The notes beneath the pieces were generated by a model. The model saw nothing but the letters and a program-made list of their open reading frames with translations. It did not search any database and had not been told where the DNA came from. DNA of 64,000 bases, taken from NCBI GenBank assembly GCA_028280285.1, contig JANQMA010000017.1:993-64992 (forward strand). The letters are read 5' to 3'. The position numbers and the translations under genes were made by a program. This document shows positions 27,876 to 62,452 of this stretch, in pieces. The stretch's first letter is position 1, and each line of letters starts with the position of its first letter. Origin of the DNA: Candidatus Omnitrophota bacterium. GTDB taxonomy: Bacteria > Omnitrophota > Gorgyraeia > Zapsychrales > Zapsychraceae.

Positions 27876-27897
27876 CCAATACAATTAATAATAAGAT

Positions 27898-28272
27898 ATG
27901 ACAAACTCCCCACAAGGTTCAGAAAGAAGAAGAGATCCCCGCCTCGAAAATAGCATTCCGCTTAAGATTGTCCAAAAAGGCATCAATATCTCGACTAATA
28001 CAGTGAATGTCAGCCGTTCCGGCGCCTATTGTACTGTTGATCAATATATCGAACCAATGACCAAGATGAAAATTGATCTTATGGTTCCTGTCCGGCAAAA
28101 CGGCAAATTTGTCAGTAAAAAGATTTCATGTGACGGCGTGGTTGTGCGTGCGGAGGAATGTGAAGATGGCAAAAGTCATAATATTGCGATCTTTTTTAAT
28201 GATATCGCGCAGAAAGATGCCGAACGTATTGCCGAATATGTGAATTCTTATCTAAAGAATGAATCGAATTGA
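27898..28272 (+). CDS. PilZ-domain protein (second paralog)
   Basis: RRRDPRLENSIPLKI ... NVSRSGAYC matches the PilZ pattern. Confidence 0.6.
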   Translation: MTNSPQGSERRRDPRLENSIPLKIVQKGINISTNTVNVSRSGAYCTVDQYIEPMTKMKIDLMVPVRQNGKFVSKKISCDGVVVRAEECEDGKSHNIAIFFNDIAQKDAERIAEYVNSYLKNESN

Positions 28273-28955
28273 GTTTATCCAGATCCACTAAAAAACCGGT
28301 TCCGGTGCTTTTTGAAAATCAGCATTTTATCGTCTTTAATAAACCCGCCAGGCTTCTTGTCATCCCGTCACCGACCGAGAAAAATAATACATTAGTTAAT
28401 ATTGTGAATCGTCAGTATGCACGTAATGATGGATCGGCCAAGCTTCATCCATGCCACCGGTTGGACAAAGACACATCCGGGGCTATTTTGTTTGCCAAGG
28501 GTAAGGCCAACCAAAAGGTGATGATGGAGGAGTTTAAAGACAGGGAAATTAAAAAAGTCTATGAGGCCTTTGTGCATGGACACCCTAAAAGAAAAAAGGC
28601 ATCGATCAGTAAGCCGATCAAGTCACTGGATCAGAAGAAATTTAAGCAAACGCGGGCCAAGCCGGCTTTAACGAATTATCAAGTGAAGAAAACCTGTGAA
28701 CACTTTAGTGTCGTCGAGGCAGAGCCTGTGACCGGACGTGCTAATCAAATACGTATTCATTTCAAAGATATCGGCCATCCGCTTGTGGGGGAGCGCAAAT
28801 ACGCCATTGCGCGGGATTATCCGGTCAAATTTAAACGTGTTGCGCTTCATGCCAGCCGTTTGGAGTTTATTGATCCACATTCGCAACAGCATGTTATTGT
28901 GGATGCTCCTCTGGCGGAAGATATGAGAGAATTTTTGGAAAAAAGTGGTCCGTGA
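28269..28955 (+). CDS. RluA-family pseudouridine synthase
   Basis: HRLDKDTSGAILFAK (catalytic Asp motif), TGRANQIRIHF and HPLVGERKYA. The last three codons and the TGA stop lie inside a GTGGTC-family palindromic element. Confidence 0.8.
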   Translation: MSLSRSTKKPVPVLFENQHFIVFNKPARLLVIPSPTEKNNTLVNIVNRQYARNDGSAKLHPCHRLDKDTSGAILFAKGKANQKVMMEEFKDREIKKVYEAFVHGHPKRKKASISKPIKSLDQKKFKQTRAKPALTNYQVKKTCEHFSVVEAEPVTGRANQIRIHFKDIGHPLVGERKYAIARDYPVKFKRVALHASRLEFIDPHSQQHVIVDAPLAEDMREFLEKSGP

Positions 28956-29012
28956 TCCGTGGTCAGTGGTCGTTTTTATGTTTGATCACAGAACACAGAC
29001 CACAGATCACTA
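28944..29012. repeat. GTGGTCYGTG-family palindromic element, copy 1 (overlaps rluA stop)
   Basis: Left arm GTGGTCCGTGATCCGTGGTCAGTGGTC, right arm GATCACAGAACACAGACCACAGATCAC. Confidence 0.85.
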
Positions 29013-29030
29013 AAATAAAGGAGGCACAAG

Positions 29031-29348
29031 GTGACAGAAGCAACTACAGAACAAGGTAAAACACTCAGTGAATTATGTGAATACTGTCATGGGATTGCAC
29101 GTGAAAAAGGTTTTTGGGATAAAGAGCGCAATGTCGGTGAGGCATTGATGCTTGTGGTTACCGAAATCGCCGAGGCCATGGAAGGTTATCGTCATGAGGA
29201 TCACGATAATTTTCGCGAGGAGATTGCCGATGCCTTTATCCGTCTTTTTGATTTCTGTGGAGGGATGGGCATTGATATCGAAGCAGAAATTATGAAAAAA
29301 TGTGCTGTTAATAAAAAACGGCCATACAAACACGGGAAAATTTGTTGA
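29031..29348 (+). CDS. MazG-like nucleotide pyrophosphohydrolase (small single-domain)
   Basis: GTG start with AAGGAGG Shine-Dalgarno. EALMLVVTEIAEAMEGYR...FREEIADAFIRLFDF is the MazG/NTP-PPase EExxE/D helix motif. Confidence 0.65.
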   Translation: MTEATTEQGKTLSELCEYCHGIAREKGFWDKERNVGEALMLVVTEIAEAMEGYRHEDHDNFREEIADAFIRLFDFCGGMGIDIEAEIMKKCAVNKKRPYKHGKIC

Positions 29349-29874: not shown

Positions 29875-29949
29875 AATTAAGGGGACACATCACTTAATTC
29901 GAAAGTAATAATTTTAAATTAATTAAGTAATGTGTCCCCTTAATTCACC

Positions 29950-31974
29950 ATGGATCAATTCAAACTAGTTTCAAAATTCAAACCTGTCACCGAACAGCTG
30001 GATGCGGTCGATAAGCTCGTTCAAAACATTAAGGGCGGCACAAAAGATCAGGTTCTCCTCGGGGTAACCGGGAGCGGTAAAACATTCACCCTCGCCAATG
30101 TGATTGAGAAGATCAACCGTCCGACGCTCGTTATAAGCCACAATAAAACCCTTGCCGCTCAACTCTATAGCGAATTTAAAGAATTCTTTCCCCATAATGC
30201 GGTTGAGTATTTCGTGAGTTATTACGACTATTATCAACCGGAAGCCTATGTTCCCCAAACCGATATTTATATCGAGAAGGATGCTTCGATCAATGACCGG
30301 CTGGACCGTCTGCGTCTTGCGTCAACCACATCGCTTATGACCAGACGTGATGTTATTATTGTGGCGAGCGTTTCTTGTATTTACAATCTTGGTTCGCCTG
30401 AAGATTATGCACAGTTTTTACTTTATTTGAATGTTGGTGATGAAATTGAGCGCGATCAGGTGCTGGAGAAGCTGGTCGACATACAGTATGAACGCAGCGA
30501 TATGGATTTTAGGCGCGGTTCTTTCCGCGTGCGTGGGGATGTGGTCGAGGTTTATCCGGCATACCGGCAGGACGGCCTTAGAATTGAATTTTTCGGGGAT
30601 GAGATTGAAAAGATCAAACAAATTCATCCGCTGACAGGTGATGTGATTGCCGAACTTGATAAAATTGCCGTGTATCCGGCGAAACATTTTATCATCGGTC
30701 ATGAGCGCATTGACGCGGCCATGGTTGAAATCGAAACAGAACTGAAAGAACAACTTAAAGTATTAAATAAAAAAGGCAAGCTCGCCGAGGCGCAAAGACT
30801 TGAGTCGCGCACGAAATACGATATGGAAATGATGAAAGAGATGGGCTATTGCAACGGGATTGAAAACTATTCACGTGTCTTATCCGGCCGCCCACCGGGG
30901 TCCAGGCCGTATTCGCTCATTGATTATTTCCCGGACGATTTTGTAACGCTGATTGATGAGTCGCATGTAACCGTTCCACAGGTTAACGGGATGTATAACG
31001 GCGACCGCGCGCGTAAAACAACGCTTGTTGATTATGGTTTCCGTCTGCCGTCGTGTTTGGATAATCGTCCGCTTAAATTTGCTGAATTTGAAAAATTAAT
31101 CAGTCAGACTATTTATGTCTCCGCTACACCCGGGCCTTATGAGCAGAAAAAAGGCAAAGGAAATCTGGTCGAGCAGATTATCCGTCCGACGGGGATTGTT
31201 GATCCGCCGATTGAAGTGCGCAAGACCGAAGGGCAAATCGATGATTTGATGAATGAAATCAAAAAGCGGGCCAAGGCCAATGAGCGTGTGCTGGTTACAA
31301 CGCTGACCAAACGAATGTCGGAAGATTTAACGGAGTATCTGCAGGATAACAGTATTAAGGTAAAATATTTGCATTCCGACATTGAAACCATTGATCGTAC
31401 GAAAATCCTGCAGGATCTGCGGCTTAAAAAATATGACTGCCTTGTCGGGGTTAACCTTTTGCGTGAAGGTTTGGATTTGCCGGAAGTCTCTCTTGTGGCG
31501 ATACTCGATGCGGATAAGCAAGGCTTTTTACGTTCGCAGACTTCACTCATTCAAACAGCCGGGCGCGCTGCGCGTAATGTCAACGGCATTGTTATTATGT
31601 ATGCCGATACGATAAGCCAAGCGATGAAAGATACGATGGCCGAGTGTGAGCGCCGGCGTAAGATCCAACTCGCGTTTAATAAAAAGCATAATGTCACACC
31701 GCAGACGATTAAGCGGGCTATCCGCCAGGGAATTGAAGTGTTGGCCGACGAGGTCGAAGAAGTGGTGCTTGATGCGGCCGGCCAGGACAAAGAAGAGTTT
31801 GCTTTTGCCAATTCAATTGCCGCACTTGAACGGGAAATGGAAAATGCGGCGCGCAATTTACAATTTGAGAAAGCCGCCAAGTTTCGTGATAGAATAAAAG
31901 CATTACAGGAAAGCCTCGGGGAGCCGTTGGCCGAGCCGAGCGTGCGTAGGCGAAGAAAGAAATCTAAAAAGTGA
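29950..31974 (+). CDS. uvrB: excinuclease ABC subunit B
   Basis: Walker [10 protein letters not shown], helicase motifs, the UvrB beta-hairpin region and a C-terminal UVR domain ([27 protein letters not shown]). The stop codon lies inside a palindromic element. Confidence 0.95.
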
Positions 31975-32030
31975 TCAGTGGTCTGTGATCACAAATATTA
32001 ACTGACCACAGAACACAGACAACAGACCAC
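31969..32030. repeat. GTGGTCYGTG-family palindromic element, copy 2 (contains the uvrB stop codon)
   Basis: GTGATCAGTGGTCTGTGATCAC ... GACCACAGAACACAGACAACAGACCAC. Confidence 0.85.
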
Positions 32031-35011: not shown

Positions 35012-35083
35012 TGGTGGTCTGTGTTCTGTGGTCTGTGTTCAGTTAAATGAACGACTGATCACAGATCACGGACCACAGATCAC
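35012..35083. repeat. GTGGTCYGTG-family palindromic element, copy 3 (intergenic, after groEL)
   Basis: GGTGGTCTGTGTTCTGTGGTCTGTGTTC ... GATCACAGATCACGGACCACAGATCAC. Confidence 0.85.
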
Positions 35084-38519: not shown

Positions 38520-41500
38520 GTGAAACGCACTCACTGGACATATAGATGCATTGCACTTGTCGTAAGCTGTTTATTTACAGTTACTTCGATAAATCCCGTC
38601 TATGCCCAGATGCAACCTACCCAGGCCATTGCTCCTAAACCATTGCCTTTAAATGTGTTAAGTCAACCCTATGAACCGATTTTGATCAAAGGCCTTAAGG
38701 TCAATCAGACCAATCCATTTGAGATGGAGTTTATTGTAAGTGATCCGTGGTCCGTGGTCCGTGGTCAGCGGAATACTGATCACAGACCACAGAGCACAGA
38801 CCACCTAGAGCAGGAGTCTACTCAATTAATTAAATACTTCCTTGCCGCTTTAACCACTCCCGAGCAAGACATGTGGGTCAACCTATCCCCGTATGAGAAG
38901 AATCGGATTATTCCAGAGTCATTTGGTCGGACAGAAATGGGACGGGAGCTGCTTGTACAGGACTATCTTTTAAAACAGGTTACAGCATCATTGCTTCATC
39001 CGGATGGGGAGTATGGACAAGAGTTTTGGAGTAAAATAGCAACCCAAACATCGGAGGACATACCATTAGAATTATTCAATAAGGTCTGGATCATGCCGGA
39101 TAAAGCGGTGGTGTATGAGAATGAAGGGATAGCGTATGTGGTAGAGGCGAGTCTTAAGGTTATGTTGGAGGAAGATTACCTTGCGCAGCAAAAGAGTGGT
39201 CCGTGGTCCGTGGTCAGTGATCTGTCAAAAAATACGACCACAGATCACAGAACACAGACCACACAAATCATTCGTGAAACAATCATTCCCGCTATCGAAA
39301 CCGAGGTCAACAATAGCAAGAATTTCGCCAAGCTCCGCCAGATCTATCACAGCCTCATCCTGGCGACATGGTACAAGAAAAAGATGCAAAACGCGATTTT
39401 AACCCAAGTCTATGCCGATCAAAACAAGACTAATGGTGTAAGCCACAATGATCCTAAAGCAGCTGAAAAAATCTGGCAAGAGTACACCAAGACATTTAAA
39501 GAAGGGGCGTATAACTTTATCAAAGAAGAATACGATCCACAGACTCAGCAAATCGTTCCACGGAAGTATTTCAGCGGGGGGATGGCGATGGAGGTTGTGC
39601 TATCAGAACCGGCAGCGCTTACATCACAACAACAAGAGACTATTCCCGACAACGCCTACCTCGTCCGTGTTGCGTTAAACGAATTGACTCCCGATTCTGA
39701 TAGCGCGGCAATGGTTAAGAAAAAATCAGCGGATGATTTTAAATATAATGTCAATATAAGGACCCCCAAATTACAGGATCAACTCCCAGGGTTAGCAAAA
39801 AAACGGGAACAGACAAAGAAGGCACTTATTGGTTATTTCAATCAAATGATACATCATAATCCATTTGAAATGCCGAAATTTAATGTGAATTATAATCGAA
39901 TCATGCATTTACTACGACATATGATAGGGTTTGATGCTATTGGATTCTCATTTTCTGAACAAGATCCTGATGGCTTTATTACAAAAGCTGCGGTTTCTAA
40001 TGTGCTTATCCCTTTAATTGAACAAACAAAATTTCCTTTGTCTGTTGACCGTATGACACAATTTGTATTAGAGGCAAATTTAGATAATGAACGTCAGTTT
40101 AAATATATCGAAGCGCTTAATGATTTTAAAGTTTTTGCTACTTCTTATTCGGAAGGCGCCGAAAACGCAGCGTTGACAGCGCCCGCTCCCGACCCCGCCG
40201 TGATGACGCAAGAGGAACAACTTTCTATCGATCCGGCATCACTTGCTGAGTTAGCATTGGCTATGACTGAAAAGGATGTTCAAGATATCGCTGAAGTAGC
40301 CCGGTTGATAAAACAGAACTCCGATCATTATGCAAAAATATTGCTCAAAGAATATAACCAAACCAAAGACCAATTCAAAAATCGAGAAGAAATAATAAAG
40401 ATTGACGCTGTTGTAGACGATCCGACAATCCAGAAATTAATAAAAATATTTAAACGGATAAGCCGTAAAACAGGGAAAGAAAACAGCCGTAATGTTTCGC
40501 GTAGTTTAATGGGCTTAATTTATTTCTATAAATATATAACATATTTATATAAGCCCAAATATCAAATGGATGTTATAAGTGACATATCATTAAATATACT
40601 TTTGGGGGATATAATTAGGGAAAGCAATACTAAGAGAGGCCTTAAATCTTCCACCATTCCTATAGAAGATCAAATGCGCAATGTTGTTTTAGATTTTGCC
40701 GATAATTTAGGCAATTTGGTTGGGCGGATCAATGCACTGCCAAAAGCGAACACTACAGAGTTTGCACAAGTGTGGGCCTCTATGATTAATGAGGATAATT
40801 TTACCAGGGCAGATCTTTATCAGAACATAAAATCTTTTGGCAGGGTTTTAGAAGCGCGACGCGGGCGTTTTTTAACATTCTTAAGAGCAGACCGCAGCTT
40901 AACACGTGAAGCAAAAGAAACGTTGATTCTAAAAGCGCTTGCAATGAATCAAGAAGGGAAGGATCCAAAGGCAATTGTGGATGAATTAATGCAAGTGTGG
41001 ATTCCTCAATTTAAACGCAGTGAAGCAATATATGGTGTGCTAAGGATGACCGGCTGGGAATCAGAAATTCATAGATACCAATGGGGTGAATATGCAAAAT
41101 ATGCCCCTTTTCCTGTTCGGGAAATCACCAATGTCTACCGGGATATTGTTGGTATGCATTTAGATCCTCATATTTCCTCACATGATTGGACAGAGTATGT
41201 CGGACGTCCGGCACTCTCCTGGTTTGTTCAGTGGAAAAAAATAGAAGCCATGACTCAATTGAGTTTTATACCACTTGAAGATCCGGATGGTAATTTGATT
41301 TACAATGATTTGCAGGTTAATGGGGTTATCCCCGAGGAAATTTTAAAACTTGTTTATAAGGACGTTCATCCGCTGGCAACTATTTCCGGTACAGAAGATA
41401 AAAAGTGGAGGACGGAACGATGGCAGTTATATAAGGGCCATTACTATCCACCACTCGAAAGTGAATGGATAGAGTTTGTCAAAATGCTGCTCTATTCCTC

Positions 41501-44500
41501 CCAAAATCGCTTGAAGAGTAGACGAGGCAATCATGATGCTGTCATTGTAAAGCACGCTTATAATTTAAAAATAGGCAACCTTCGTTATGATCTGTATCAG
41601 TCAAATAATTTATGGAGGCTGCAGTATCCGTATGGAGATATATCTGATCTTCCATTTTCTGATTATGGGAAGAGCCTGCAGACAGCACAAGTTCTACATG
41701 GCTTGATGATGCATCATCTTGTTGTTAAGTATGGTCTCATTAATAATGCTCCGGCTGAACATCATGATTTTATTATGCGTTTATCTGATATGTGGCAAAG
41801 TTTTGAAAACGATCTTGAGGAAACTCTTCAAAACCGGGGTTATACGCGAGAGAATTTGCGTTTGCATGTTTTGTCGAATGCTCATGGAGTCGATGGTATT
41901 AAATATCTTAGGGAATTGTTTATTAATCGTATATTTCGATTACGTGAAAAGAAAGTTACTGAGGAAATACGTAATCTTGTCGAGTCGACCCTCACTGAAG
42001 TGGATGATGTTTTAACGGAAGAATATGAAAAGAGAAAGGACGTCGAAAACGCGGCATTGATTAAACAGCGTCCAGCGTTGAGCGTAGAGCGTATAGCGGA
42101 TAGTGATATTAATCTAACCGCTAAACGCCATCCGCTAGACACTAAAACCGACCCCGCCGCGATGGTGAAACAAAATTTGGCGAACATTGACCAAAATATT
42201 TATGAGGATATTGTAGACCATCTTCTATGGCATAAGCCAAATGTGATTGTAAAAGATCATTATCGCGATATTTTAGCGCGGTTTATTCACGATAATAGAA
42301 AAAAAGAAAAAAAATTCTGGTCTCGTGAGGGTAAAAAAATATTTTCCAAAGAGCAGGTGCGCACTTTATTGGAATCTTGGCCCGGAAATAATATGCAATA
42401 TAAAGCACATGTTAATTCTTCGGGGAATAGAGAAATATCAATCATATTGCATCAAAAAATTAAACCGACTTTTACTATTGATCTTACATTTAAGAGAGAC
42501 GGACAGGTTAAGCTAGGTAAACAGTTTAAATCGCATCAAAACTATATAGTGGATAGATTAGAAGAGAGTTATGGGATCGACCGTATTGAAGCCCGTGTGA
42601 TTGCACAAATAGCACGTCGTTATTGGTTTAAAAGTGTTTTTATCCCTATGCTGCGCGAGATGGAAATTGACCATCTGCATGGTAAAAAAATAGATGAAAA
42701 ATCAACATTTTTCGCAGAGATGGGTTTTAAAGACGGTGTTTTATCTGTCGACCCCGCCGCGATGGCGGAGCAGGAGCAAGAGTCCAAAAAAGATCAATCC
42801 GCTCCGGTGTCTTTCAATGTTGGCGATGAATTGAGGAGGATTTATCATAATACAACACGTCCTAAAATTTTCAAAGTAGAAAAATGGCCTGGGCAGGCTA
42901 TACAACTACGAATGGAAGAGGATCCTCTTCCACGAGATAAACCGCCTAATTCTATTACTGATGAGGATTTGACATATCGCATATACGCATCGGTCACACA
43001 TGGGAAATCCGCGTTCTACTATCCTGTAGCGATGCGTTCGGGTATTTTTTACAAAAATGATATTGTTGATTTAACAAAAGGCTGGCAAATTACTTATAAT
43101 TACCCGGCCGTCTATAAGCTTATTCAAAACTACCGAGATAAGAATGGATATGCAAGTTATTTGGAGGCGATTGATCATCTATTAGAAAACGATGAAGAAA
43201 CCCGTAAATATGAGAAACATTTAATTAACCAAATCATTTCTTTGTTTCCGATTTTGCAAATTTTTTATGGGTTTTCATCAGATGAGCAAGTGGATGAGTA
43301 TTTTAACCAGGCCCCTCAACAATTAGAAAATAAAGGTATTGCCTCGGCTTTACTTGAATATTTAGGAAGTTATTTACCGGTTGGAACAAAAGTCAAAATT
43401 ATCGGAGCGAATCGGCCGACCGTAGAAGCTCTTAATAAGGGAACGGTATTTGAAGATACATTGCTCGGGAAAATGTATACGCGTATCGGATTTAAAGTTT
43501 TATCTATTGAACAAAAAGACGGACAAAATCCAATTGTTGTTTTCCAGAAGACAAAAAATGTAAAACCACGCGCTAAGTGGAAAGATGTAACGAAGTTAGG
43601 AGGTCACGTTTTATCCGTAGAGAGCGGTGTCGTTTCTGATTCCGAAGGTGTCGAAAACGCTGCATTGAGCAAAGTTGTCCCTGACTCTGCCGTAATGGTC
43701 GGTTTGAAAACGGATCCAATAGAGTTATCCATGGTGGAAGAAAACTATATTAGACTTTTAATAGAAAATAATTACCAGAAACAAACTTTTCAGGTGATGA
43801 TTAACGATATTAAAGATCCTGATCGAATTCACCAGCTTATGACGGAAGTCTTAAAGCGAAAAGGGTATTATCGACCAGAGATCAATAATTTTAATGATAG
43901 AAGTAGGTTTCCTTTGGAGGTTCCAGGTGATAGAGGGCTTATTTTAACGTCTATGGGTGATGGTAATGAAGATATTTTAAGATTTACGGTTGAAAGTAAT
44001 AATGTGATTATGTGGAAGCGTCCTAAAATTGGTGGTTCAAAATTGGGTGTTGCACCGGTTGCCTATGTTTGGTGGGCAACTCATCCAGAAATTAGAAAAG
44101 AGTTGTCCGGGAAGCCAATGAAGGGGTATAAGGCAGATTATAGGCAGGGGAGGGCTCTTGAAAAAGCATGGATTTTTAAAATTGCCTTACCCGATGGAGC
44201 TAAAGATTGGAACAAATATGATTATTCAGGTTCTTTTCCTGTTTGGCAAAAAGATTTAAAACAAAACGTCGAAAACGCGGCGTTGACAGAGCCTGCTCCC
44301 GATCCCGCCGCGATGGCGAAGCAGGAATTTGAACGGACTGATTCAGCGGTAGTTGCAGATCAGGAAGGACAATATATTATCCCTGGTTTTGATATTATAA
44401 AATATTCGGTTGATTCTTATGATCAAGAAAATCGAGAAGCAAGAGAAAGTCGAGAGGCAAGATATGAATTGAATGATTGGCAAGAAGGTGTTGTATTGGC

Positions 44501-46034
44501 TCAAATTGAAAATATCATTATGCAGGCACAAGAAATTGGCGATATAGATATGGAAAATTATTTAATATATGTTTTGGAACAAGGAGTTAAAAAATTTATT
44601 AAATCTGATACGTCAGAATATATTCAGGCAGTAGGTAAAACAAAAATGGACGGTCGTGAAGTTGTTTCAATAGCCGAGGAATTACTTAATCAATCAAGAT
44701 CTGATGATGACGTGAAATTATTGGTTAAATTGGTTTTAATCCATGAATTTAATCATATTCTTGATCACAAATTAAATCGTTTATCATTAAACATTATGAA
44801 ATTAGTTGACATAAATCTTATAGAACGTTCGGCCTTGATTCGTTCAGCTGCATATTTTGATGGATTTATAAAGAAAGAAGGCGATGGATTAAATGATTTT
44901 ATTGTCATGTACCGATTTGATGGCGATAAAATTATGGCTTATACTTCAACAAATTCGGAAATATCTTCTGTGAAATCAGATTATCAAAAGCCACCTGTTA
45001 TCATGCCTGGGGAAAATCGGTATACATATTATGATCAATTAGCTAGAAAAGGAAATATTGTAACGTCTGAAGAAACTGGGTCTATATATTATTATGAGTC
45101 ATATAGAAAAGGGGGTGATGACACTACACTGGAAAAAAATGGTGTCGTTTCTGAAAAAAATGGTGTCGTTTCTGATTCCGAAGGTGTTGAAAACGCTACG
45201 TTGGCAAAGGGCGCTTCCGACAATGCCGCGATGGCGGATAATTCAGATAGTGATGAGGTTTTTATAGAACAAGATAATTATACTTTTAAATATCGACGAC
45301 CAACACAAATAGCAATGGCTTCGGTAACAGTGATGAATCCCAAAGGAGTTCATGGTGGTCCTTCACAATATATAACGGGTTTGGTTAAATCGTATCAAGA
45401 TATTTGGCCACTAACGATTAAAATGAAATTTAAGGGTGAATACATTGATACGAATGATGTGAAAAATATTATGGAATTGAAAATAAAACAAGGTGATGTA
45501 TTGGAAATAGAGATGTTTGGGAGTGAAGAAGGGGCTTTAAAGTTTGTGCAAAGTATGGCCGCAAGGGTAGCTGATTCTGAAACACGTAAAAAGTATGAAG
45601 CGAAAATCACAAGACAGCCATTAAATGAGGATGACGCAGCATTGACTAAAGGTGGTATAGACTTCGACGCCTCCAAAATGGATCTAGAGATTCGGACGGA
45701 ACAAAGCCAGATGCTCGATGCTCGCCCGCCCCGCCGCTTCGCGGCGGAAGCTGCGGGCCGGGGATGCTCGATGCTAGAGGACGAAGAGTTGCGAAAAGAG
45801 TGCCTTACTAACACCTCTAGTGGTATACAGTTTAAGTTTACTCCCCAACAGATTGAGGGGATGCGCCAGAATATTACGGGCTTTAATCCGGTGATTATTA
45901 ATATCCAGCCGATTGTGAACTTGCCGTTGTTTTTGGGGTTGAATGATATTGAGGACGCGCCGGATGAGACAGAAACGGTAGAGGCAGATGGTCAGGATCT
46001 TTTAGCAAGAATGGAGGAGTATTCATATAACTAG
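38520..46034 (+). CDS. giant secreted protein (2504 aa) of unknown function, with repeated ENAAL..PAPDPAAM modules and an HEFNH motif
   Basis: Uninterrupted 7.5-kb ORF in an AT-rich genome. Signal peptide MKRTHWTYRCIALVVSCLFTVTSINPVYA-Q. HExxH at about nt 44745 (LVLIHEFNHILDH). Contains three in-frame palindromic-element insertions and 6-7 GC-rich repeat modules. Confidence 0.8.
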   Translation: MKRTHWTYRCIALVVSCLFTVTSINPVYAQMQPTQAIAPKPLPLNVLSQPYEPILIKGLKVNQTNPFEMEFIVSDPWSVVRGQRNTDHRPQSTDHLEQESTQLIKYFLAALTTPEQDMWVNLSPYEKNRIIPESFGRTEMGRELLVQDYLLKQVTASLLHPDGEYGQEFWSKIATQTSEDIPLELFNKVWIMPDKAVVYENEGIAYVVEASLKVMLEEDYLAQQKSGPWSVVSDLSKNTTTDHRTQTTQIIRETIIPAIETEVNNSKNFAKLRQIYHSLILATWYKKKMQNAILTQVYADQNKTNGVSHNDPKAAEKIWQEYTKTFKEGAYNFIKEEYDPQTQQIVPRKYFSGGMAMEVVLSEPAALTSQQQETIPDNAYLVRVALNELTPDSDSAAMVKKKSADDFKYNVNIRTPKLQDQLPGLAKKREQTKKALIGYFNQMIHHNPFEMPKFNVNYNRIMHLLRHMIGFDAIGFSFSEQDPDGFITKAAVSNVLIPLIEQTKFPLSVDRMTQFVLEANLDNERQFKYIEALNDFKVFATSYSEGAENAALTAPAPDPAVMTQEEQLSIDPASLAELALAMTEKDVQDIAEVARLIKQNSDHYAKILLKEYNQTKDQFKNREEIIKIDAVVDDPTIQKLIKIFKRISRKTGKENSRNVSRSLMGLIYFYKYITYLYKPKYQMDVISDISLNILLGDIIRESNTKRGLKSSTIPIEDQMRNVVLDFADNLGNLVGRINALPKANTTEFAQVWASMINEDNFTRADLYQNIKSFGRVLEARRGRFLTFLRADRSLTREAKETLILKALAMNQEGKDPKAIVDELMQVWIPQFKRSEAIYGVLRMTGWESEIHRYQWGEYAKYAPFPVREITNVYRDIVGMHLDPHISSHDWTEYVGRPALSWFVQWKKIEAMTQLSFIPLEDPDGNLIYNDLQVNGVIPEEILKLVYKDVHPLATISGTEDKKWRTERWQLYKGHYYPPLESEWIEFVKMLLYSSQNRLKSRRGNHDAVIVKHAYNLKIGNLRYDLYQSNNLWRLQYPYGDISDLPFSDYGKSLQTAQVLHGLMMHHLVVKYGLINNAPAEHHDFIMRLSDMWQSFENDLEETLQNRGYTRENLRLHVLSNAHGVDGIKYLRELFINRIFRLREKKVTEEIRNLVESTLTEVDDVLTEEYEKRKDVENAALIKQRPALSVERIADSDINLTAKRHPLDTKTDPAAMVKQNLANIDQNIYEDIVDHLLWHKPNVIVKDHYRDILARFIHDNRKKEKKFWSREGKKIFSKEQVRTLLESWPGNNMQYKAHVNSSGNREISIILHQKIKPTFTIDLTFKRDGQVKLGKQFKSHQNYIVDRLEESYGIDRIEARVIAQIARRYWFKSVFIPMLREMEIDHLHGKKIDEKSTFFAEMGFKDGVLSVDPAAMAEQEQESKKDQSAPVSFNVGDELRRIYHNTTRPKIFKVEKWPGQAIQLRMEEDPLPRDKPPNSITDEDLTYRIYASVTHGKSAFYYPVAMRSGIFYKNDIVDLTKGWQITYNYPAVYKLIQNYRDKNGYASYLEAIDHLLENDEETRKYEKHLINQIISLFPILQIFYGFSSDEQVDEYFNQAPQQLENKGIASALLEYLGSYLPVGTKVKIIGANRPTVEALNKGTVFEDTLLGKMYTRIGFKVLSIEQKDGQNPIVVFQKTKNVKPRAKWKDVTKLGGHVLSVESGVVSDSEGVENAALSKVVPDSAVMVGLKTDPIELSMVEENYIRLLIENNYQKQTFQVMINDIKDPDRIHQLMTEVLKRKGYYRPEINNFNDRSRFPLEVPGDRGLILTSMGDGNEDILRFTVESNNVIMWKRPKIGGSKLGVAPVAYVWWATHPEIRKELSGKPMKGYKADYRQGRALEKAWIFKIALPDGAKDWNKYDYSGSFPVWQKDLKQNVENAALTEPAPDPAAMAKQEFERTDSAVVADQEGQYIIPGFDIIKYSVDSYDQENREARESREARYELNDWQEGVVLAQIENIIMQAQEIGDIDMENYLIYVLEQGVKKFIKSDTSEYIQAVGKTKMDGREVVSIAEELLNQSRSDDDVKLLVKLVLIHEFNHILDHKLNRLSLNIMKLVDINLIERSALIRSAAYFDGFIKKEGDGLNDFIVMYRFDGDKIMAYTSTNSEISSVKSDYQKPPVIMPGENRYTYYDQLARKGNIVTSEETGSIYYYESYRKGGDDTTLEKNGVVSEKNGVVSDSEGVENATLAKGASDNAAMADNSDSDEVFIEQDNYTFKYRRPTQIAMASVTVMNPKGVHGGPSQYITGLVKSYQDIWPLTIKMKFKGEYIDTNDVKNIMELKIKQGDVLEIEMFGSEEGALKFVQSMAARVADSETRKKYEAKITRQPLNEDDAALTKGGIDFDASKMDLEIRTEQSQMLDARPPRRFAAEAAGRGCSMLEDEELRKECLTNTSSGIQFKFTPQQIEGMRQNITGFNPVIINIQPIVNLPLFLGLNDIEDAPDETETVEADGQDLLARMEEYSYN
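38741..38804. repeat. GTGGTCYGTG-family element, copy 4, in frame inside the giant ORF
   Basis: GATCCGTGGTCCGTGGTCCGTGGTCAGCGGAATACTGATCACAGACCACAGAGCACAGACCAC, translated as DPWSVVRGQRNTDHRPQSTDH. Confidence 0.85.
39196..39263. repeat. GTGGTCYGTG-family element, copy 5, in frame inside the giant ORF
   Basis: GTGGTCCGTGGTCCGTGGTCAGTGATCTG...GACCACAGATCACAGAACACAGACCAC, translated as SGPWSVVSDLSKNTTTDHRTQTTQ. Confidence 0.85.
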
Positions 46035-51059: not shown

Positions 51060-51087
51060 GAGAAATAAAAGTGGTTGTAATAAATTA

Positions 51088-56471: not shown

Positions 56472-57900
56472 GACCACCAAATCACATGAGCAAATAACAA
56501 GATACGTGACAGCCACCTTTTTAGGAATTTTGTTTGTTGCTTTTTGTTATTTGATGAACTACTCATTAATACTTCCGTTGTTGGTCATACTGATGGGCGC
56601 TCATTTGCGTCTTTCGCGTAATATCAATTCGCGTATGCTGCTTAATCTTGGCTTATTATTCATGGTCATTGTGGCACTCGCGTATTTCATACAATATAAA
56701 TTTCCCAACACAACATTTGTGATCCCTGTTGCCAGTATTGGTATGTTAACGATGCTTTTATTTAATAGCTATCGATTAACATTGATTATGTCATTTGTGA
56801 CGAGTGTGTTTGTCGGCAATATGCTCGATGGTGGTTTTGGCATGATGATTATGTTTTTTTCTGGCGCTATGGTCGGTGGATATGCCGTTTATGAAGCACG
56901 GACACGAGGGCAGTTATTTACAGCGGGGCTTTTTGCCAGTGCAATACAAACTATTGCTTTAATTTTGATGTACCCTGACTCACAGAAAATTCTAGCCGGG
57001 GAGTTTATGAGTGAATATCTTTATCCGACTGTTGCCAATGGTTTTCTTTCTGCGCTTTTTGTTGTTGCGACACTAAAAATATTTGAGTCAATTTGTGGCG
57101 TTTTGACGAACTTCAGCTTGCTGGAATTATCCGACTTTAATAATCCGCTTCTTAAACGTATGATTATGGAGGCGCCGGGCACCTATCATCACAGTTTGGT
57201 TGTCAGTAACCTAGCCGAGGCTGCGTCGAATGAGATCGGGGCGAATGGACTTTTGACGCGTGTAGGTGCGTACTATCATGATATCGGCAAAATGTCGAAG
57301 CCTGAATACTTCACGGAAAATCAATTGATGGGCGGCAATAAACATGATGCGATTGAACCATCGATGAGCCGATTGGTTATTATTAATCATGTGAAAGAAG
57401 GAATTGAACTTGCTAAGAAGCATAAGTTAAATCAGGCTATCATTGATTTTATTCCGCAGCATCACGGGACATCGCTTATTTTCTATTTTCATCAAAAGGC
57501 GATTGAAGGGGCCGGTGATGTGCGTGAAGTTGATGAGGAAAATTACCGTTATCCCGGACCTAAACCGCAGACACGTGAGACCGCGATCACACTTTTGGCG
57601 GATTCGGTGGAAGGGGCCACGCGCGCGCTTGATGAGCATACACCAAGCAGTATTCAAGAGACAGTGCAGAAGGTTATCAATAATAAATTTATCGACGGGC
57701 AGCTGGATGAATGTCCACTGACACTCAAGGAAATTGACCGGATTGCTAAAACATTTACCCGCATCTTAAGCGCGATGTATCACGGACGCGTTAAATATCC
57801 TGAAAAGAAAAAAGAGAATGGACATTCAAATAGAAAATCTTCAGAAAAAGATAATTCTGAAACCAATTCCGATCAAGAACCTGGTCCAAACGGTTCTTAA
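56443..57900 (+). CDS. 7TM receptor with intracellular HD hydrolase (YqfF/PgpH-like)
   Basis: Multiple TM helices followed by the HD domain (HSLVVSNLAE...YYHDIGK...QHHGT). Confidence 0.85.
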   Translation: MRLMNMTTVETTKSHEQITRYVTATFLGILFVAFCYLMNYSLILPLLVILMGAHLRLSRNINSRMLLNLGLLFMVIVALAYFIQYKFPNTTFVIPVASIGMLTMLLFNSYRLTLIMSFVTSVFVGNMLDGGFGMMIMFFSGAMVGGYAVYEARTRGQLFTAGLFASAIQTIALILMYPDSQKILAGEFMSEYLYPTVANGFLSALFVVATLKIFESICGVLTNFSLLELSDFNNPLLKRMIMEAPGTYHHSLVVSNLAEAASNEIGANGLLTRVGAYYHDIGKMSKPEYFTENQLMGGNKHDAIEPSMSRLVIINHVKEGIELAKKHKLNQAIIDFIPQHHGTSLIFYFHQKAIEGAGDVREVDEENYRYPGPKPQTRETAITLLADSVEGATRALDEHTPSSIQETVQKVINNKFIDGQLDECPLTLKEIDRIAKTFTRILSAMYHGRVKYPEKKKENGHSNRKSSEKDNSETNSDQEPGPNGS

Positions 57901-58318
57901 AGGCGAAGGGATAAAAAGCGCTGCGCTTGATCTTGCCTTCGTTACCGCACAAAAGATACGTTCGATTAATAGCAAATATTTAAATCATCATTATGTGACG
58001 GATGTTATTACGTTTGATTACGGTGGTCCGTGGTCTGTGGTCCGTGGTCGGAGTCCTAAAATTAATACACAGAAAACAGACCACAGAAAACAGACCACTT
58101 TAAATGGTGAAATTATTATTTCCACCGATGCGGTCAGGCAGAATGCGCGCAAGTTTAAAACCAGTGAGGCATATGAGCTTGCGCTTTATCTCGTGCATGG
58201 CATTTTGCATTTGTTGGGGTATGATGATAAGACAGTGAAAGATAAGGCGGTCATGCGTGAGGCGGAGGAGAGGGTAATGGGGTATTTGGGTAAAAAAATA
58301 GATAAGGTAAACGCATGA
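57818..58318 (+). CDS. ybeY: rRNA maturation endoribonuclease YbeY carrying an in-frame palindromic-element insertion of about 25 aa
   Basis: Zinc-binding HGILHLLGYDD motif. Insert GGPWSVVRGRSPKINTQKTDHRKQTTLNG lies between VITFDY and EIIISTDAV. Confidence 0.85.
   Translation: MDIQIENLQKKIILKPIPIKNLVQTVLKGEGIKSAALDLAFVTAQKIRSINSKYLNHHYVTDVITFDYGGPWSVVRGRSPKINTQKTDHRKQTTLNGEIIISTDAVRQNARKFKTSEAYELALYLVHGILHLLGYDDKTVKDKAVMREAEERVMGYLGKKIDKVNA
58023..58098. repeat. GTGGTCYGTG-family element, copy 6, in frame inside ybeY
   Basis: GGTGGTCCGTGGTCTGTGGTCCGTGGTCGGAG...CACAGAAAACAGACCACAGAAAACAGACCAC. Confidence 0.85.
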
Positions 58319-60469: not shown

Positions 60470-62452
60470 ATGAAAAAAATTTTATTGATTATTTTAGTGA
60501 TCACGCTTTTAGGCGGAGGCACTTATTTGTATTTACAAAAGAGCTCACCCGCAAGTGACTTTGAAAGCATTGTGCCCGATGGACCGATCGCCTACATCGA
60601 AGTAACAGATGCCGAGAAGAATTTAAACCGTTTTATGTCTTCTCAATTTTTTGAAAGCTTGGCCAACTTGGATCCCGGGGAAGTCTCGCCGGTTAGTAAT
60701 CCCCTAAAACAGTTTAGAGAGGCTTTAGAATCGGATGAATCGATCAAATCGTTTATGACGATTGTCAAACATAAGGTTGCCTTGGTGGTCTATGATATCA
60801 ACATTGATTTTGCCCAGACAATGAAGACAACGGAATTTCCTTTGGATCAGATGTTTAAGGTGCTTGAGAGTTTTTATGTGCTCATCGAACTTGATGCTGG
60901 CATGAAGGCGGCCGAAATTATTGCCAGTGCCTTGCAGGCATTTGGCGACGGGGTAAGTGTCGAAAAAAAAGAGCATAGCGGGCACACATATCAAGTTGTT
61001 ACAGCCGGAGTGGATCAGCCGAGCATTTCTTACACACGTTTGGGTAATGTCTTGGTTGTGACCCTTGCTGAAAATGCGATGAGAAAAGCGATTGATGTCA
61101 AAAACGGTGCTCAAACTTCTTTGGCGAGTGATGCCAAGTTTCAGGCAGCGCGCAAAGACACAGCGGGAGATATTTTTGGATATTACAGTTTTGATCATCT
61201 CACGCAGCTGATGGAAACTATGTTTGCATCTGTTCCGGATGATATTGTTAAAAACCAGGCACAAAAGCAATTAACTTTTTTTGAAGGTCTGAATTATGGG
61301 GTGTTTTCCTCCGATTGGGATGAGTTTATCTCAATGCATTGGATTATAGATTATGATAGCGCCAAATTACATAAAGATTATGTCGATAATTACGAGAGTT
61401 GCGTAGGAGAGCAGAATAAGACAATCAAGTTTGTTCCGCAAGATGTGTTGGGATATTATTGGGCCGGATGTATTGACTGGAGGCAAATGCTCGAAGAAGT
61501 CAAACAAGGACTCGGACAAATCCAGAATTCTGCTGCGACCGGTGCAATGGCATTTGCCGAACCGTATCTAAACATATTGGGTAGCGACATGGGCGGATTT
61601 TTAACCGACATTGAACAAGGTGTGTTTCCTATTCCGAATTTAATGCTTTTTATCGGGTTAAATGATGTTGAAGCGGTGCAAACAATGATTGCGCCCTTTT
61701 TAGAAAGTCCGTTTGCCCGTATCGAAGCACTTGACTATGAAGGGCAAAAAGTGTTCAAGGTGCAGCTGCCGGTGAATGTGATCATGCCGGGATACGCCTT
61801 TATCGACAAGCATCTTGTTATTGCCACACACGTGAGTCAGCTACAAGAATCTATTGCTTTATCTAAAGGTAAAGGCAAGTCTCTTACTGATAATGATACA
61901 TACAAAAATATTGGGCTTGGTTCGTCGAAAGATGGCAATAGCGCACAATATTTTGAATTAAGCCGTTTAATGACAAAGTTGTTGGCTTATGAAGATTTTT
62001 CTAAAAGTATGCTCCGTCAGCAAGAAGAAAAAAAGCAAGCGTTTATGGAAGGCAGTGTTAGAAGACTTGAGGATATCCAAACGCGTATTAACCGTAAGCA
62101 AGAGGAGCTTAAGAAACAAGAAGATGAAGTTACTGCCTTGGAAGACGCCCTATTTCTTGATGAAACCAAAGGCCTTGATGTATCGGTCCAAAGGCGGACA
62201 ATTGAAGACCTGCAAAGTGATATGGCAACATTGAAAACGGATATTGAAGTTGCCCGTGAGCAAGAGGCAGACACACAGGCTATTCTTGATTCTTACACAG
62301 ATACTGTTGGTCAAACCGCATCAATAGAGGCCACATTGGATCATGTGGCAGTGCCTTTGCTCAATGCATTAAAAAACATAGATGTCTTTGCCGGAAAGGC
62401 AACCACGACCAAAGACAAGACGAAAACAAAATTCATTTTAAAGGTAAAATAA
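60470..62452 (+). CDS. hypothetical membrane-anchored protein with a C-terminal coiled coil (660 aa)
   Basis: N-terminal TM ILLIILVITLLGGGTYLYL. A long heptad-like region (EEKKQAFMEGSVRRLEDIQTRINRKQEELKKQEDEV...). Confidence 0.5.
   Translation: MKKILLIILVITLLGGGTYLYLQKSSPASDFESIVPDGPIAYIEVTDAEKNLNRFMSSQFFESLANLDPGEVSPVSNPLKQFREALESDESIKSFMTIVKHKVALVVYDINIDFAQTMKTTEFPLDQMFKVLESFYVLIELDAGMKAAEIIASALQAFGDGVSVEKKEHSGHTYQVVTAGVDQPSISYTRLGNVLVVTLAENAMRKAIDVKNGAQTSLASDAKFQAARKDTAGDIFGYYSFDHLTQLMETMFASVPDDIVKNQAQKQLTFFEGLNYGVFSSDWDEFISMHWIIDYDSAKLHKDYVDNYESCVGEQNKTIKFVPQDVLGYYWAGCIDWRQMLEEVKQGLGQIQNSAATGAMAFAEPYLNILGSDMGGFLTDIEQGVFPIPNLMLFIGLNDVEAVQTMIAPFLESPFARIEALDYEGQKVFKVQLPVNVIMPGYAFIDKHLVIATHVSQLQESIALSKGKGKSLTDNDTYKNIGLGSSKDGNSAQYFELSRLMTKLLAYEDFSKSMLRQQEEKKQAFMEGSVRRLEDIQTRINRKQEELKKQEDEVTALEDALFLDETKGLDVSVQRRTIEDLQSDMATLKTDIEVAREQEADTQAILDSYTDTVGQTASIEATLDHVAVPLLNALKNIDVFAGKATTTKDKTKTKFILKVK

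What the first reader, a model, noticed from the sequence alone, without database searches (positions are those of the whole stretch)
28944..29012. Palindromic element supplies the last codons and stop codon of rluA
The rluA ORF ends ...EKSGP* with AAAAGTGGTCCGTGA. Here GTGGTCCGTGA is the first arm unit of the element. The element has therefore inserted into or replaced the original 3' end of the gene, or it targets stop-codon-proximal sequence. Copy 2 likewise contains the uvrB TGA (AAAAAGTGATCAGTGG). In both cases the target reads AAAAAGTG. This looks like a target-site preference for AAAAGTG or a recombination-generated junction.
Basis: seen in the sequence. Interest (0 to 1): 0.55.

Follow-up and report, generated by a model that had tools for sequence, protein, structure and literature searches.

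The report
Heptamer-repeat hairpin element ends rluA
A 66-base hairpin-forming repeat built from seven-base units sits on the very end of the rluA gene of an Omnitrophota bacterium and now supplies its last three codons and its stop signal. It is one of seven copies in this window, three of them read in frame inside genes, and belongs to a little-described but not unprecedented kind of repeat.

Summary
rluA (28269-28955) ends AGT GGT CCG TGA inside the first arm of a palindrome at 28945-29010, and uvrB ends on a TGA in the first unit of a second copy at 31971-32030.

The element has four tandem heptamers GTG-N-TC-N, an unrelated 10-20 nt loop, then four inverted heptamers. Exactly seven copies lie in the window, against about 0.04 expected by chance.

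Four syntenic Omnitrophota relatives have no element at either junction. Their RluA ends ...LEKN*, ...LSKF*, ...RNRN* or ...RNGN*. In the two relatives whose sequence reaches the end of uvrB, uvrB overlaps coaX. So both copies are lineage-specific insertions, and neither protein is truncated.

The stop arises because a GTGATC unit contains TGA in one frame of three. The proposed AAAAGTG target is not supported. GTG belongs to the element, the A-run is ancestral Lys/Glu codons, and the other five copies lack it.

Three further copies are read in frame, one in YbeY and two in a 2504-aa protein, as Rickettsia palindromic elements are. The window also holds other heptamer-array palindromes, which hug upstream stop codons. 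GTGGTCN palindromes occur in several phyla.

How the element spreads and what it does are inferred, not shown.

The parts
28945..29010 (.). Copy 1 of the GTGNTCN heptamer palindrome. 5' arm 28945-28972 (GTGGTCC GTGATCC GTGGTCA GTGGTCG), loop 28973-28982, 3' arm 28983-29010.
   Evidence: RNA fold -26.8 kcal/mol, z -4.5
28269..28955 (+). rluA (RluA-family pseudouridine synthase, PF00849). The last codons AGT GGT CCG and the stop TGA (28953-28955) lie in the element. The TGA comes from unit 2 being GTGATC rather than GTGGTC.
29020..29348 (+). GGAGG ribosome-binding site (29020-29024) and the MazG-like ORF (GTG 29031..29348) downstream. In relatives this gene overlaps rluA or follows it within 32 bp.
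31971..32030 (.). Copy 2. Its first unit GTGATCA contains the uvrB stop TGA (31972-31974). coaX starts at 32038.
29950..31974 (+). uvrB, 674 aa, all domains including UVR complete. The tail ...RRRRKKSKK* matches the Lys-rich tail of a relative (...KKLSKKKKKT*).
35014..35083 (.). Copy 3, 26 nt after the groEL stop and 10 nt before a classical terminator-like hairpin with a T-run (35094-35123). The sense-strand hairpin is the most stable of the seven (-46 kcal/mol).
38740..38804 (.). Copy 4, read in frame inside the 2504-aa ORF 38520..46034 as ...SDPWSVVRGQRNTDHRPQSTDH...
39196..39262 (.). Copy 5, read in frame in the same ORF as ...SGPWSVVSDLSKNTTTDHRTQTT... The same linker in homologues holds similar or different heptamer palindromes.
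58023..58098 (.). Copy 6, read in frame inside ybeY (57818..58318) as ...GGPWSVVRGRSPKINTQKTDHRKQTT..., in the variable loop between TDVxxFD and GDIIIS.
62844..62913 (.). Copy 7, starting 2 nt after the stop of a CMD-family ORF (62452..62841).

Best explanation
The sequence at 28945-29010 is one copy of a dispersed, hairpin-forming repeat. Its arms are four tandem heptamers (GTG-N-TC-N) and their inverse, around a short loop that differs in every copy. It entered the rluA/mazG-like junction in this lineage. The simplest history is a 66-bp, frame-preserving insertion two codons before the old TAA, which is still present just after the element. In rluA's frame the element reads SGP*SVVSGRFYV*SQNTDHRSLK*. 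Translation now stops at the first in-frame TGA, which exists because unit 2 is the GTGATC variant (G TGA TC) and not GTGGTC (TGG = Trp, as in the read-through copies). GTGATC closes one frame in three, and GTGGTC units and the whole 3' arm are open in all frames. A copy landing on a gene end therefore readily donates a stop, and a copy landing in a tolerant protein loop can be read through. The resemblance AAAAAGTG at rluA and uvrB is ancestral A-rich Lys/Glu codons followed by the element's own GTG, not a target site. Shown: the anatomy, the copy number, absence in relatives, intact protein domains, in-frame copies, and closeness to stop codons. Inferred: the element spreads as a preformed non-autonomous unit. 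Copies are retained only where a 60-76-nt hairpin is harmless or useful, namely the first bases of 3' UTRs or intercistronic spacers and permissive protein linkers. In mRNA it acts, if at all, as a REP-like 3' hairpin and not as a terminator.
For: Anatomy and excess over chance. Every copy is 3-4 + 4 units with an unrelated loop. Unit positions 1, 2, 5 and 6 are invariant in 56 units; position 4 is G/A/T 55/23/20%. Insertion: four syntenic relatives lack it at both junctions, and no GTGNTCN array occurs in their ~55 kb. Proteins intact: RluA alignment, UvrB domains. rluA frame through the element and the retained TAA. TGA is an ordinary stop here (11 of 46 genes). In-frame copies. The closest YbeY homologue (55% identical) lacks about 18 residues exactly there. 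Signs of selection on translated copies: the seventh base is C in 9 of 12 outer units of the 5' arms of the four translated copies against 2 of 30 elsewhere (p=2e-5). That gives Arg/Pro instead of Cys/Leu codons and weakens the sense-strand hairpin. Stop-codon proximity. Not a terminator: no U-tract follows, and copy 3 is followed by a separate classical terminator.
Against: No transposase, no target-site duplication and no conserved loop were found, so mobility as a unit is inferred only from presence/absence and the constant 4+4 architecture. The window also holds palindromes with the same architecture but other heptamers, and orthologous spacers in relatives hold unrelated hairpins. Both fit local growth of hairpins as well as they fit transposition. 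The relatives are distant (59-81% RluA identity), so the exact ancestral junction cannot be reconstructed. Removing 66 bp gives EKIK* and removing 67 bp gives EK*. Only 64 kb of the genome was seen.
Confidence: 0.75

Rival explanations
1. Local origin without transposition. A short hairpin or heptamer seed at each site grew by 7-bp replication slippage, and the second arm was copied from the first by intrastrand template switching (quasi-palindrome correction). Each palindrome is then home-grown.
For: Loops differ in all seven copies. At least six other heptamer or octamer units form the same kind of palindrome in this window. Orthologous spacers in relatives carry unrelated hairpins or arrays: AGGGAAC-type in L122, period-9 in L124. 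The same linker of the giant-protein family holds different heptamer palindromes in different homologues.
Against: The same five conserved unit positions and the same 4+4 length recur at seven unrelated sites in 34 kb, and in other phyla. Relatives have no hairpin or seed at the rluA and uvrB junctions, where the genes overlap or are 15-32 bp apart.
Confidence: 0.2
2. One reading: a site-specific element that targets AAAAGTG, or stop-codon-proximal sequence as such.
For: Both gene-end copies read AAAAAGTG at the left junction. Flanks are AT-rich. Arrays of this class begin -18 to +3 nt from upstream stops in 9 of 12 intergenic cases. In other phyla an ORF stop lies within 12 nt of a boundary in 14 of 23 elements.
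Against: GTG is part of the repeat unit. Five of seven copies have no A-run. The A-runs are ancestral codons present in relatives that lack the element. Three copies lie deep inside ORFs. Closeness to stops is expected from selection in a compact genome, where the downstream part of a spacer holds the ribosome-binding site or promoter.
Confidence: 0.05
3. A selected RNA element. The hairpin is kept at gene ends because it protects the upstream mRNA from 3' exonucleases or tunes translational coupling between cistrons, as REP sequences do. Stop-codon donation is a by-product. This concerns function and is compatible with either origin.
For: Position just after or on stop codons and upstream of the next gene's ribosome-binding site. 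Strong folding. Copy 3 lies in the groEL 3' UTR before the real terminator and is most stable in the sense orientation. Every orthologous 3' spacer examined in relatives holds some hairpin.
Against: No consistent sense-strand advantage: five of seven copies fold better as antisense. No compensatory changes were seen; variation at unit position 4 simply breaks pairs. In-frame copies cannot be serving as 3' barriers.
Confidence: 0.3
4. Assembly or chance artefact.
For: Short-read contigs of the same organism break inside copy 1 (L121 starts in its loop).
Against: Both sides of that break match the window. L127 spans the ybeY copy intact. Seven copies stand against 0.04 expected. The same architecture occurs in many independent assemblies.
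Confidence: 0.02

Closest known systems
Convergent heptamer-repeat pairs of Xanthomonas (GGGAATC repeats; PMC4692102)
   Same: Tandem heptamers, usually about four units. 70-75 cases per genome occur as two arrays in convergent orientation able to form stem-loops. About 90% are intergenic and much closer to the upstream ORF's end (mean 28 nt) than to the next ORF. This is the same architecture and the same placement as here.
   Different: The unit is G-rich (G-quadruplex-prone) rather than GTGNTCN. No stop-codon donation or in-frame coding copies were described in the section read. The phylum differs.
Cyanobacterial STRR heptanucleotide repeats (own knowledge: Mazel et al. 1990) and TAACTGA repeats of Beggiatoaceae (PMC4679880)
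   Same: Dispersed arrays of tandem heptamers with several unit families per genome and a patchy distribution across phyla. (GTGGTCA)n arrays are themselves present in Moorena, Dolichospermum, Aphanizomenon and Oscillatoria, where they are miscalled as small ORFs.
   Different: Those are mainly direct arrays. In Maribeggiatoa they lie just upstream of start codons, with only one indirect repeat among 170 sets. Here the defining form is an inverted 4+4 pair just after stop codons.
Rickettsia palindromic elements (RPE; reviewed in PMC10969869)
   Same: Palindromic repeats inserted in frame into unrelated housekeeping genes, adding a peptide in a tolerated place. Here that applies to YbeY and a giant secreted protein.
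   Different: RPEs are ~150 bp, belong to conserved sequence families that encode a conserved peptide, and are not built of heptamers. No homology was tested or is implied.
REP / BIME / REPIN elements and their RAYT transposases (PMC3733652, PMC3116915)
   Same: Short extragenic palindromes, high copy number, at 3' ends of genes. They are thought to stabilise mRNA. From memory (Liang, Rudd and Deutscher 2015), they depress translation of the upstream gene when within about 15 nt of its stop.
   Different: REPs carry a conserved GTAG or CGTC head, have conserved sequence rather than periodic units, and are tied to a RAYT gene. None of this is seen here.
Bacterial MITEs (Correia, ERIC, BOX, RUP; PMC10969869)
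   Same: Non-autonomous, hairpin-capable, able to fuse with or interrupt ORFs.
   Different: MITEs have terminal inverted repeats derived from an IS and target-site duplications. No duplication and no parent IS are seen here, and the arms are entirely tandem repeats.

Membership tests
Heptanucleotide-repeat palindromes (Xanthomonas-type convergent arrays / STRR-like) | Arms made of tandem 7-nt units | tested here: met
   TRF period 7 for both arms of all seven copies; unit parse 3-4 + 4
Heptanucleotide-repeat palindromes (Xanthomonas-type convergent arrays / STRR-like) | Two arrays in convergent (inverted) orientation close together, able to form a stem-loop | tested here: met
Heptanucleotide-repeat palindromes (Xanthomonas-type convergent arrays / STRR-like) | Mostly intergenic and nearer the upstream ORF's 3' end than the downstream ORF | tested here: met
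   Four of seven GTGNTCN copies and all other-unit palindromes; the left gap is -18 to +3 nt in 9 of 12 cases; combined p=3e-4. Three of seven copies are intragenic.
Heptanucleotide-repeat palindromes (Xanthomonas-type convergent arrays / STRR-like) | Unit identical to a described family (GGGAATC, TAACTGA, STRR1-3) | tested here: not met
   The unit is GTG-N-TC-N. A full-text search for the doubled unit found no relevant paper.
Rickettsia palindromic elements | Palindromic repeat inserted in frame in protein-coding genes | tested here: met
   Copies 4, 5 and 6
Rickettsia palindromic elements | Member of a conserved RPE sequence family of ~150 bp encoding a conserved peptide | tested here: not met
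   Length is 60-76 bp and loops are unrelated. Sequence comparison with RPEs was not run.
REP / REPIN-RAYT | Conserved GTAG or CGTC tetranucleotide at one end of a 20-40 bp palindrome | tested here: not met
   Copies begin GTGG/GTGA and end CCAC/TCAC; arms are 21-28 nt of periodic units
REP / REPIN-RAYT | Cognate RAYT (IS200/IS605-like) gene in the genome | not testable with these tools
   Only 64 kb is available. None appeared among the 30 ORFs scanned against Pfam, and no gene recurs next to elements in 240 loci.
MITE | Target-site duplication flanking terminal inverted repeats | tested here: not met
   Flanks of the seven copies share no direct repeat at a fixed offset
Intrinsic terminator | GC-rich stem followed at once by a U-tract | tested here: not met
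   Copy 1 is followed by TAAAATAAAGG. The scan calls no + strand terminator at any copy, and copy 3 is followed by a separate classical terminator.
Rfam RNA families | Match to a curated covariance model | tested here: not met
   Only three tRNAs reach gathering score in the window

The most novel reading that the evidence does not exclude
The GTGNTCN '4+4' hairpin is not just another local repeat. It would belong to a mechanistically distinct element class that spans phyla: Omnitrophota, Acidobacteriota, Planctomycetota, Chloroflexota, Cyanobacteria. Its arms would be written in 7-nt steps by a dedicated activity, either templated repeat addition at a break or a hairpin-targeting enzyme. It would home to hairpin loops and gene 3' ends, which would explain the nested palindromes and the repeated occupation of one protein linker. 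It would also be repeatedly domesticated as protein linker sequence and as a source of stop codons.
Probability: 0.15. Interest if true: 0.75.

Novelty: new variant of a known kind. Interest (0 to 1): 0.42.

Why it matters
For annotation, these elements move stop codons, add peptides to conserved proteins and mislead gene callers. The public call for this ybeY is a 93-aa fragment that starts inside the element. The same arrays are called as small hypothetical proteins in cyanobacteria and other phyla.

For biology, the window shows the whole range of outcomes for one small repeat family within 34 kb:
- in a 3' UTR;
- wedged between formerly overlapping cistrons;
- donating a stop codon;
- read through as a protein linker, with signs of codon-level selection.

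This places RPE-like behaviour in the uncultivated phylum Omnitrophota. The constant 4+4 architecture in distant phyla suggests an unidentified sequence-specific constraint or machinery. Heptamer repeats have long been noted as over-represented in bacteria without an accepted explanation.

Tried and rejected
- The Rfam scan of the window found only tRNAs.
Neither returned the source genome. They gave a biased but useful cross-phylum sample, not a genome-wide census for a target logo.
It therefore did not measure how common in-frame copies are in real proteins.
- A search for a gene that recurs next to elements found only ABC ATPases, two-component proteins and short-chain dehydrogenases, that is, no candidate mobilising enzyme (all-against-all BLAST of ORFs within 2.5 kb in 240 loci).
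- DNA for the giant-protein homologue P0245 was not on record, and the P0019 locus had no DNA. Whether the shared-site copies in homologues are orthologous could not be tested.
- UGA recoding was considered and rejected: 9 other genes in the window end in TGA, and long conserved ORFs are intact.
- A terminator role was considered and rejected.
- A consistent sense-strand RNA advantage was looked for and not found.
- Shared runs of unit variants between copies, such as GATCACAGAACACAGACCAC in copies 1 and 5, are too likely by chance to argue recent common descent.
Full report
**1. The observation**

The sequence at 28939-29012 reads AAAAAA GTGGTCC GTGATCC GTGGTCA GTGGTCG TTTTTATGTT TGATCAC AGAACAC AGACCAC AGATCAC TA. 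The ORF 28269..28955 is an RluA-family pseudouridine synthase (PF00849). It ends GAA AAA AGT GGT CCG TGA, so two bases of Ser, then Gly, Pro and the stop lie in the first two heptamers of the palindrome.

uvrB (29950..31974) ends AAA AAG TGA, with the TGA inside GTGATCA, the first unit of a second copy at 31971-32030.

The motif is far beyond chance. GTGNTCNGTGNTCNGTG with one mismatch allowed matches 35 times against 0.04 expected, and all matches fall in seven loci. The seven loci are:
- 28945-29010
- 31971-32030
- 35014-35083
- 38740-38804
- 39196-39262
- 58023-58098
- 62844-62913

An independent Logan assembly of the same organism confirms the element. L121 starts in the loop of copy 1 and matches the window from there on. 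L127 spans the ybeY copy. P0001 gives an RluA ending EKSGP.

**2. Anatomy**

Each copy has three or four tandem heptamers, a loop of 10-20 nt, and four inverted heptamers.
- In 56 parsed units, positions 1, 2, 5 and 6 (G, T, T, C) never vary, and position 3 is G in 93%. This is partly circular, because the parser required four of the five core positions to match.
- Position 4 is G/A/T at 55/23/20%. Position 7 is T/C/A at 52/21/21%.
- The innermost unit of an arm usually ends in a purine.
- The seven loops are unrelated to one another.
- No direct repeat flanks the copies.
- As RNA the copies fold into long interrupted hairpins of -15 to -46 kcal/mol, z -2.9 to -9.3.
- Variation at position 4 is not compensated in the other arm; it simply makes mismatches or G-U pairs.

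**3. The organism and its relatives**

The best hits of RluA and YbeY are Candidatus Omnitrophota MAGs. Four syntenic loci were recovered, all with the gene order PilZ, small ORF, PilZ, rluA, mazG-like, 150-aa ORF, uvrB:

| Locus | RluA identity to window |
|---|---|
| L122/L123 | 81% |
| L124 | 67% (65% over the full alignment) |
| L125 (GCA_029261065.1) | 59% (57%) |
| L248 (GCA_040960315.1) | 55% (54%) |

coaX follows uvrB in L125 and L248. L122 and L124 end inside uvrB.

None of these loci has a GTGNTCN array anywhere.

At the rluA junction the relatives read GAAAAGAAT TAA TTACCTAGGAGG (L122) and TCTAAATTT TAA AACCGGGAGGG (L124). In L125 and L248 rluA overlaps the next gene by 20 bp. RluA ends ...FLEKN*...FLSKF*...RARNRN* and ...SARNGN*, against ...FLEKSGP* in the window.

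At the uvrB junction, L125 ends AAG AAA AAG ACA TGA with an ATGA overlap onto coaX, and L248 overlaps coaX by 14 bp. The window has 63 bp between the two genes.

Both copies are therefore insertions in the window's lineage. UvrB keeps every domain, including the UVR motif at residues 621-654 of 674. The RluA alignment runs to the family's normal end. Nothing is truncated; the change is the last residue or two plus a 2-3 residue extension.

**4. Where the stop codon comes from**

GTGATC contains TGA, and GTGGTC contains TGG at the same place. Because 7 = 2x3+1, successive units are read in successive phases. Each GTGATC unit therefore closes one frame of three. GTGGTC, GTGTTC and all 3'-arm units (AGACCAC, AGATCAC, AGAACAC) are open in every frame; this can be read directly from the sequence.

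In rluA's frame the element reads K SGP* SVVSGRFYV* SQNTDHRSLK*, and the final stop is a TAA just beyond the element. The element is 66 bp, a multiple of three. The simplest reconstruction is an in-frame insertion into GAA AAA A|TA AAA TAA (...EKIK*), with translation now ending at the TGA of unit 2.

Removing 67 bp instead gives ...EK*. With relatives this distant the two cannot be told apart.

For uvrB, removing 61 bp restores TCT AAA AAA ATA TTA TGA with the ATGA overlap seen in L125. This reconstruction is inference.

TGA is an ordinary stop in this genome (11 of 46 genes), so recoding is not an issue.

**5. The proposed target AAAAGTG**

GTG is the start of the repeat unit. The preceding A-runs are ancestral Glu/Lys codons that relatives have without any element. 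The other five copies are preceded by aaatg, tgtaa, aaaga, ttacg and taatg. The specific target hypothesis fails on the sample available.

Two softer regularities are real.
- The 10-nt flanks are 77% A+T against 58% for the window (p=3e-6).
- Arrays of this architecture begin at or just after upstream stop codons (section 7).

**6. In-frame copies**

Three copies lie inside ORFs and are read through, all in the same phase as in rluA (xGT GGT CCG TGG...).
- Two lie in the 2504-aa ORF 38520..46034: ...SDPWSVVRGQRNTDHRPQSTDH... and ...SGPWSVVSDLSKNTTTDHRTQTT...
- One lies in ybeY...GGPWSVVRGRSPKINTQKTDHRKQTT....

In YbeY the insert sits in the length-variable loop between TDVxxFD and GDIIIS. The closest homologue (P0122, 55% identical) is about 18 residues shorter exactly there.

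The giant protein belongs to a family with 7,784 representatives, detected through its first 460 residues. Both inserts fall in variable linkers of that family.
- The homologue P0243 (75% identical) has neither insert. At the second site it has a different heptamer palindrome, of TGGATGC type as back-read from SSMLDAS...SSIQHPAS.
- P0244 has yet another palindrome there.
- P0245, P0254, P0265, P0287, P0311 and P0365 carry GTGGTC-type peptides (GQWSVISDQ...TTDHRSLTT) at that same site.

I could not obtain their DNA. One old insertion and repeated insertion into a permissive or preferred site remain equally open.

Translated copies look selected. Position 7 is C in 9 of 12 outer units of their 5' arms, against 2 of 30 in all other arms (p=2e-5). 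This turns Cys/Leu codons (VVCGLWS) into Arg/Pro (VVRGPWS). It also puts C-A mismatches into the sense-strand hairpin, so these copies fold better as antisense than as sense. Copy 1 has C-type arms although only three of its codons are translated. That fits a history in which it was once read through.

**7. The wider class**

TRF shows that the window holds further palindromes of the same build but with other units:
- GGACTTN at 27802-27877 and 32931-32973
- GTGAACA/TGTTCCC at 38277-38332
- AGGTTNN at 51085-51162
- AATTGGT at 53020-53159, nested inside A/T-rich arrays at 52938-53221
- AAAGGTT at 54678-54748, nested inside octamer AAAGTGAT arrays at 54636-54850
- GTTGCTN at 55459-55514, with no loop
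- an octamer array at 46033-46065

They start -18 to +3 nt from the stop of the upstream gene in 9 of 12 intergenic cases. The upstream genes include hisS, an Asp/Asn-tRNA synthetase, a GMP synthase, dnaE (+25 nt), groEL (+26 nt) and the giant gene, whose TAG overlaps the first unit. Against uniform placement in the free spacer the combined p is 3e-4. That null is crude, because the downstream part of a spacer holds promoters and ribosome-binding sites.

Scans of reference genomes and metagenomes found (GTGGTCN)n-loop-(N'GACCAC)n palindromes in MAGs of Acidobacteriota, Planctomycetota and Gemmata and in unnamed metagenome contigs, with (GTGGTCN)n arrays alone in Chloroflexota and Verrucomicrobiota.
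- 4+4 units is the commonest form: 8 of 21 elements parsed, including five of the six with loops of 19-23 nt.
- A 100-codon open frame ends within 12 nt of a boundary in 14 of 23 elements, and overlaps the boundary in three.

Cyanobacteria carry the same heptamer as direct arrays, miscalled as small proteins.

The syntenic relatives have few heptamer arrays: 6 weak period-7 TRF rows in 55 kb against about 24 in the window's 64 kb. Their orthologous 3' spacers each still hold some hairpin, sometimes one built of arrays.

**8. Function and mechanism**

Shown:
- The element is not an intrinsic terminator. No U-tract follows it. Copy 3 sits between the groEL stop and a classical hairpin-plus-T-run at 35094-35123, and a promoter-like site follows at 35132.
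- The copies at rluA and uvrB separate cistrons that are overlapping or near-adjacent in relatives.

Inferred:
- The copies are transcribed with the upstream gene.
- As 28-bp interrupted stems they could act like REP sequences, either as barriers to 3' exonucleases or, when they start within the footprint of the terminating ribosome, as modulators of termination and of coupling to the next cistron.
- Origin as a preformed unit is favoured by the constant architecture and by clean absence in relatives. No mobilising gene, duplication or conserved loop was found, and local growth by slippage and template switching remains a serious rival.
- Conservation of five specific bases per unit without compensatory change argues for a sequence-specific constraint, such as a binding protein or concerted homogenisation. 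I could not identify it.

**9. Comparison with known systems**

- The closest described case is the convergent GGGAATC heptamer arrays of Xanthomonas. They have about four units, 70-75 inverted pairs per genome, are about 90% intergenic, and lie a mean of 28 nt from the upstream ORF (PMC4692102).
- Cyanobacterial STRRs (from memory) and the TAACTGA repeats of Beggiatoaceae (PMC4679880) share the heptamer periodicity, but not the inverted form or the placement.
- The in-frame behaviour parallels Rickettsia palindromic elements (PMC10969869). RPEs are longer and have conserved sequence.
- REP/RAYT features are absent or untestable: there is no GTAG/CGTC head (PMC3733652), and a RAYT gene cannot be looked for in 64 kb.
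- A full-text search for the doubled unit found nothing relevant.

I therefore file the element as a new variant of a known kind.

**10. Verdict**

The insertion reading is supported. The AAAAGTG target reading is rejected.

Stop-codon donation is an expected by-product of a GTGATC-containing repeat landing on a gene end, so this specific finding is a modest curiosity. The family around it deserves moderate interest: seven copies, three in frame, signs of codon-level selection, nested palindromes, and a 4+4 architecture shared across phyla.

Noticed in passing
window 27802-27877, 32931-32973, 38277-38332, 51085-51162, 55459-55514: Palindromes of the same build (tandem heptamers, loop, inverted heptamers) but with other units: GGACTTN twice, GTGAACA/TGTTCCC, AGGTTNN, and GTTGCTN with no loop. 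Most start 3 nt after the upstream stop codon.
   Followed up: partly
window 52938-53221 and 54636-54850: Nested palindromes. An AATTGGT-type heptamer palindrome lies inside long A/T-rich arrays that overlap the hisS stop. An AAAGGTT-type heptamer palindrome lies inside octamer AAAGTGAT arrays that start directly after the stop of the Asp/Asn-tRNA synthetase gene. This suggests new hairpins arise in or insert into the loops of old ones.
   Followed up: partly
window 38520-46034: A 2504-aa ORF with a signal-like N-terminus and no Pfam match in its first 460 residues. Its first 460 residues match 7,784 cluster representatives. Across homologues the ~360-aa N-terminal module and a C-terminal GGIDF...PVIxxIxP...LPLFLG module are conserved, while the middles are unrelated. 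Its stop TAG overlaps the first unit of an octamer array at 46033-46065.
   Followed up: partly
window 57818-58318 (P0121): The public gene call for this ybeY is a 93-aa fragment starting at a GTG inside the element (MVRGRSPKIN...), although the full 166-aa frame is open and its N-terminal part is conserved. The repeat misleads gene callers.
   Followed up: yes
window 29875-29945: A non-heptamer palindrome (AATTAAGGGGACACAT...ATGTGTCCCCTTAATT) lies between the 153-aa ORF and uvrB. The orthologous spacer holds an AGGGAAC-type heptamer palindrome in L122, a period-9 array palindrome in L124 and a plain terminator-like hairpin in L125.
   Followed up: partly
window 42074-42098 and 45132-45175: Inside the giant ORF there is a short heptamer array (AGCGTAG, 3.6 copies) and a perfect 21-bp tandem duplication encoding EKNGVVS twice.
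   Followed up: no
window 35094-35159: A classical terminator-like hairpin with a T-run, followed directly by a promoter-like TTGACT-16-TATCAT, lies between groEL and the IMPDH-like gene, just after element copy 3.
   Followed up: partly
window 1-27000: The first 27 kb has no heptamer palindromes at all, so the elements cluster in 27.8-63 kb. This stretch holds a carbonic anhydrase gene, a chemotaxis operon (MCP, CheA, CheW, CheD, CheR, CheB), and tRNA-Pro, tRNA-Arg and tRNA-His.
   Followed up: no
window 46857-47577: A small ORF followed by an overlapping PIN-domain ORF, which looks like a toxin-antitoxin pair, downstream of the giant gene. An AbrB/SpoVT-like small ORF may lie on the minus strand at 46374-46652.
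   Followed up: no
L043 4266-4381: A palindrome with the opposite arm order, (AGACCAC)n, loop, (GTGGTCT)n, in an uncultured bacterium. Both arm orders therefore exist in nature.
   Followed up: no
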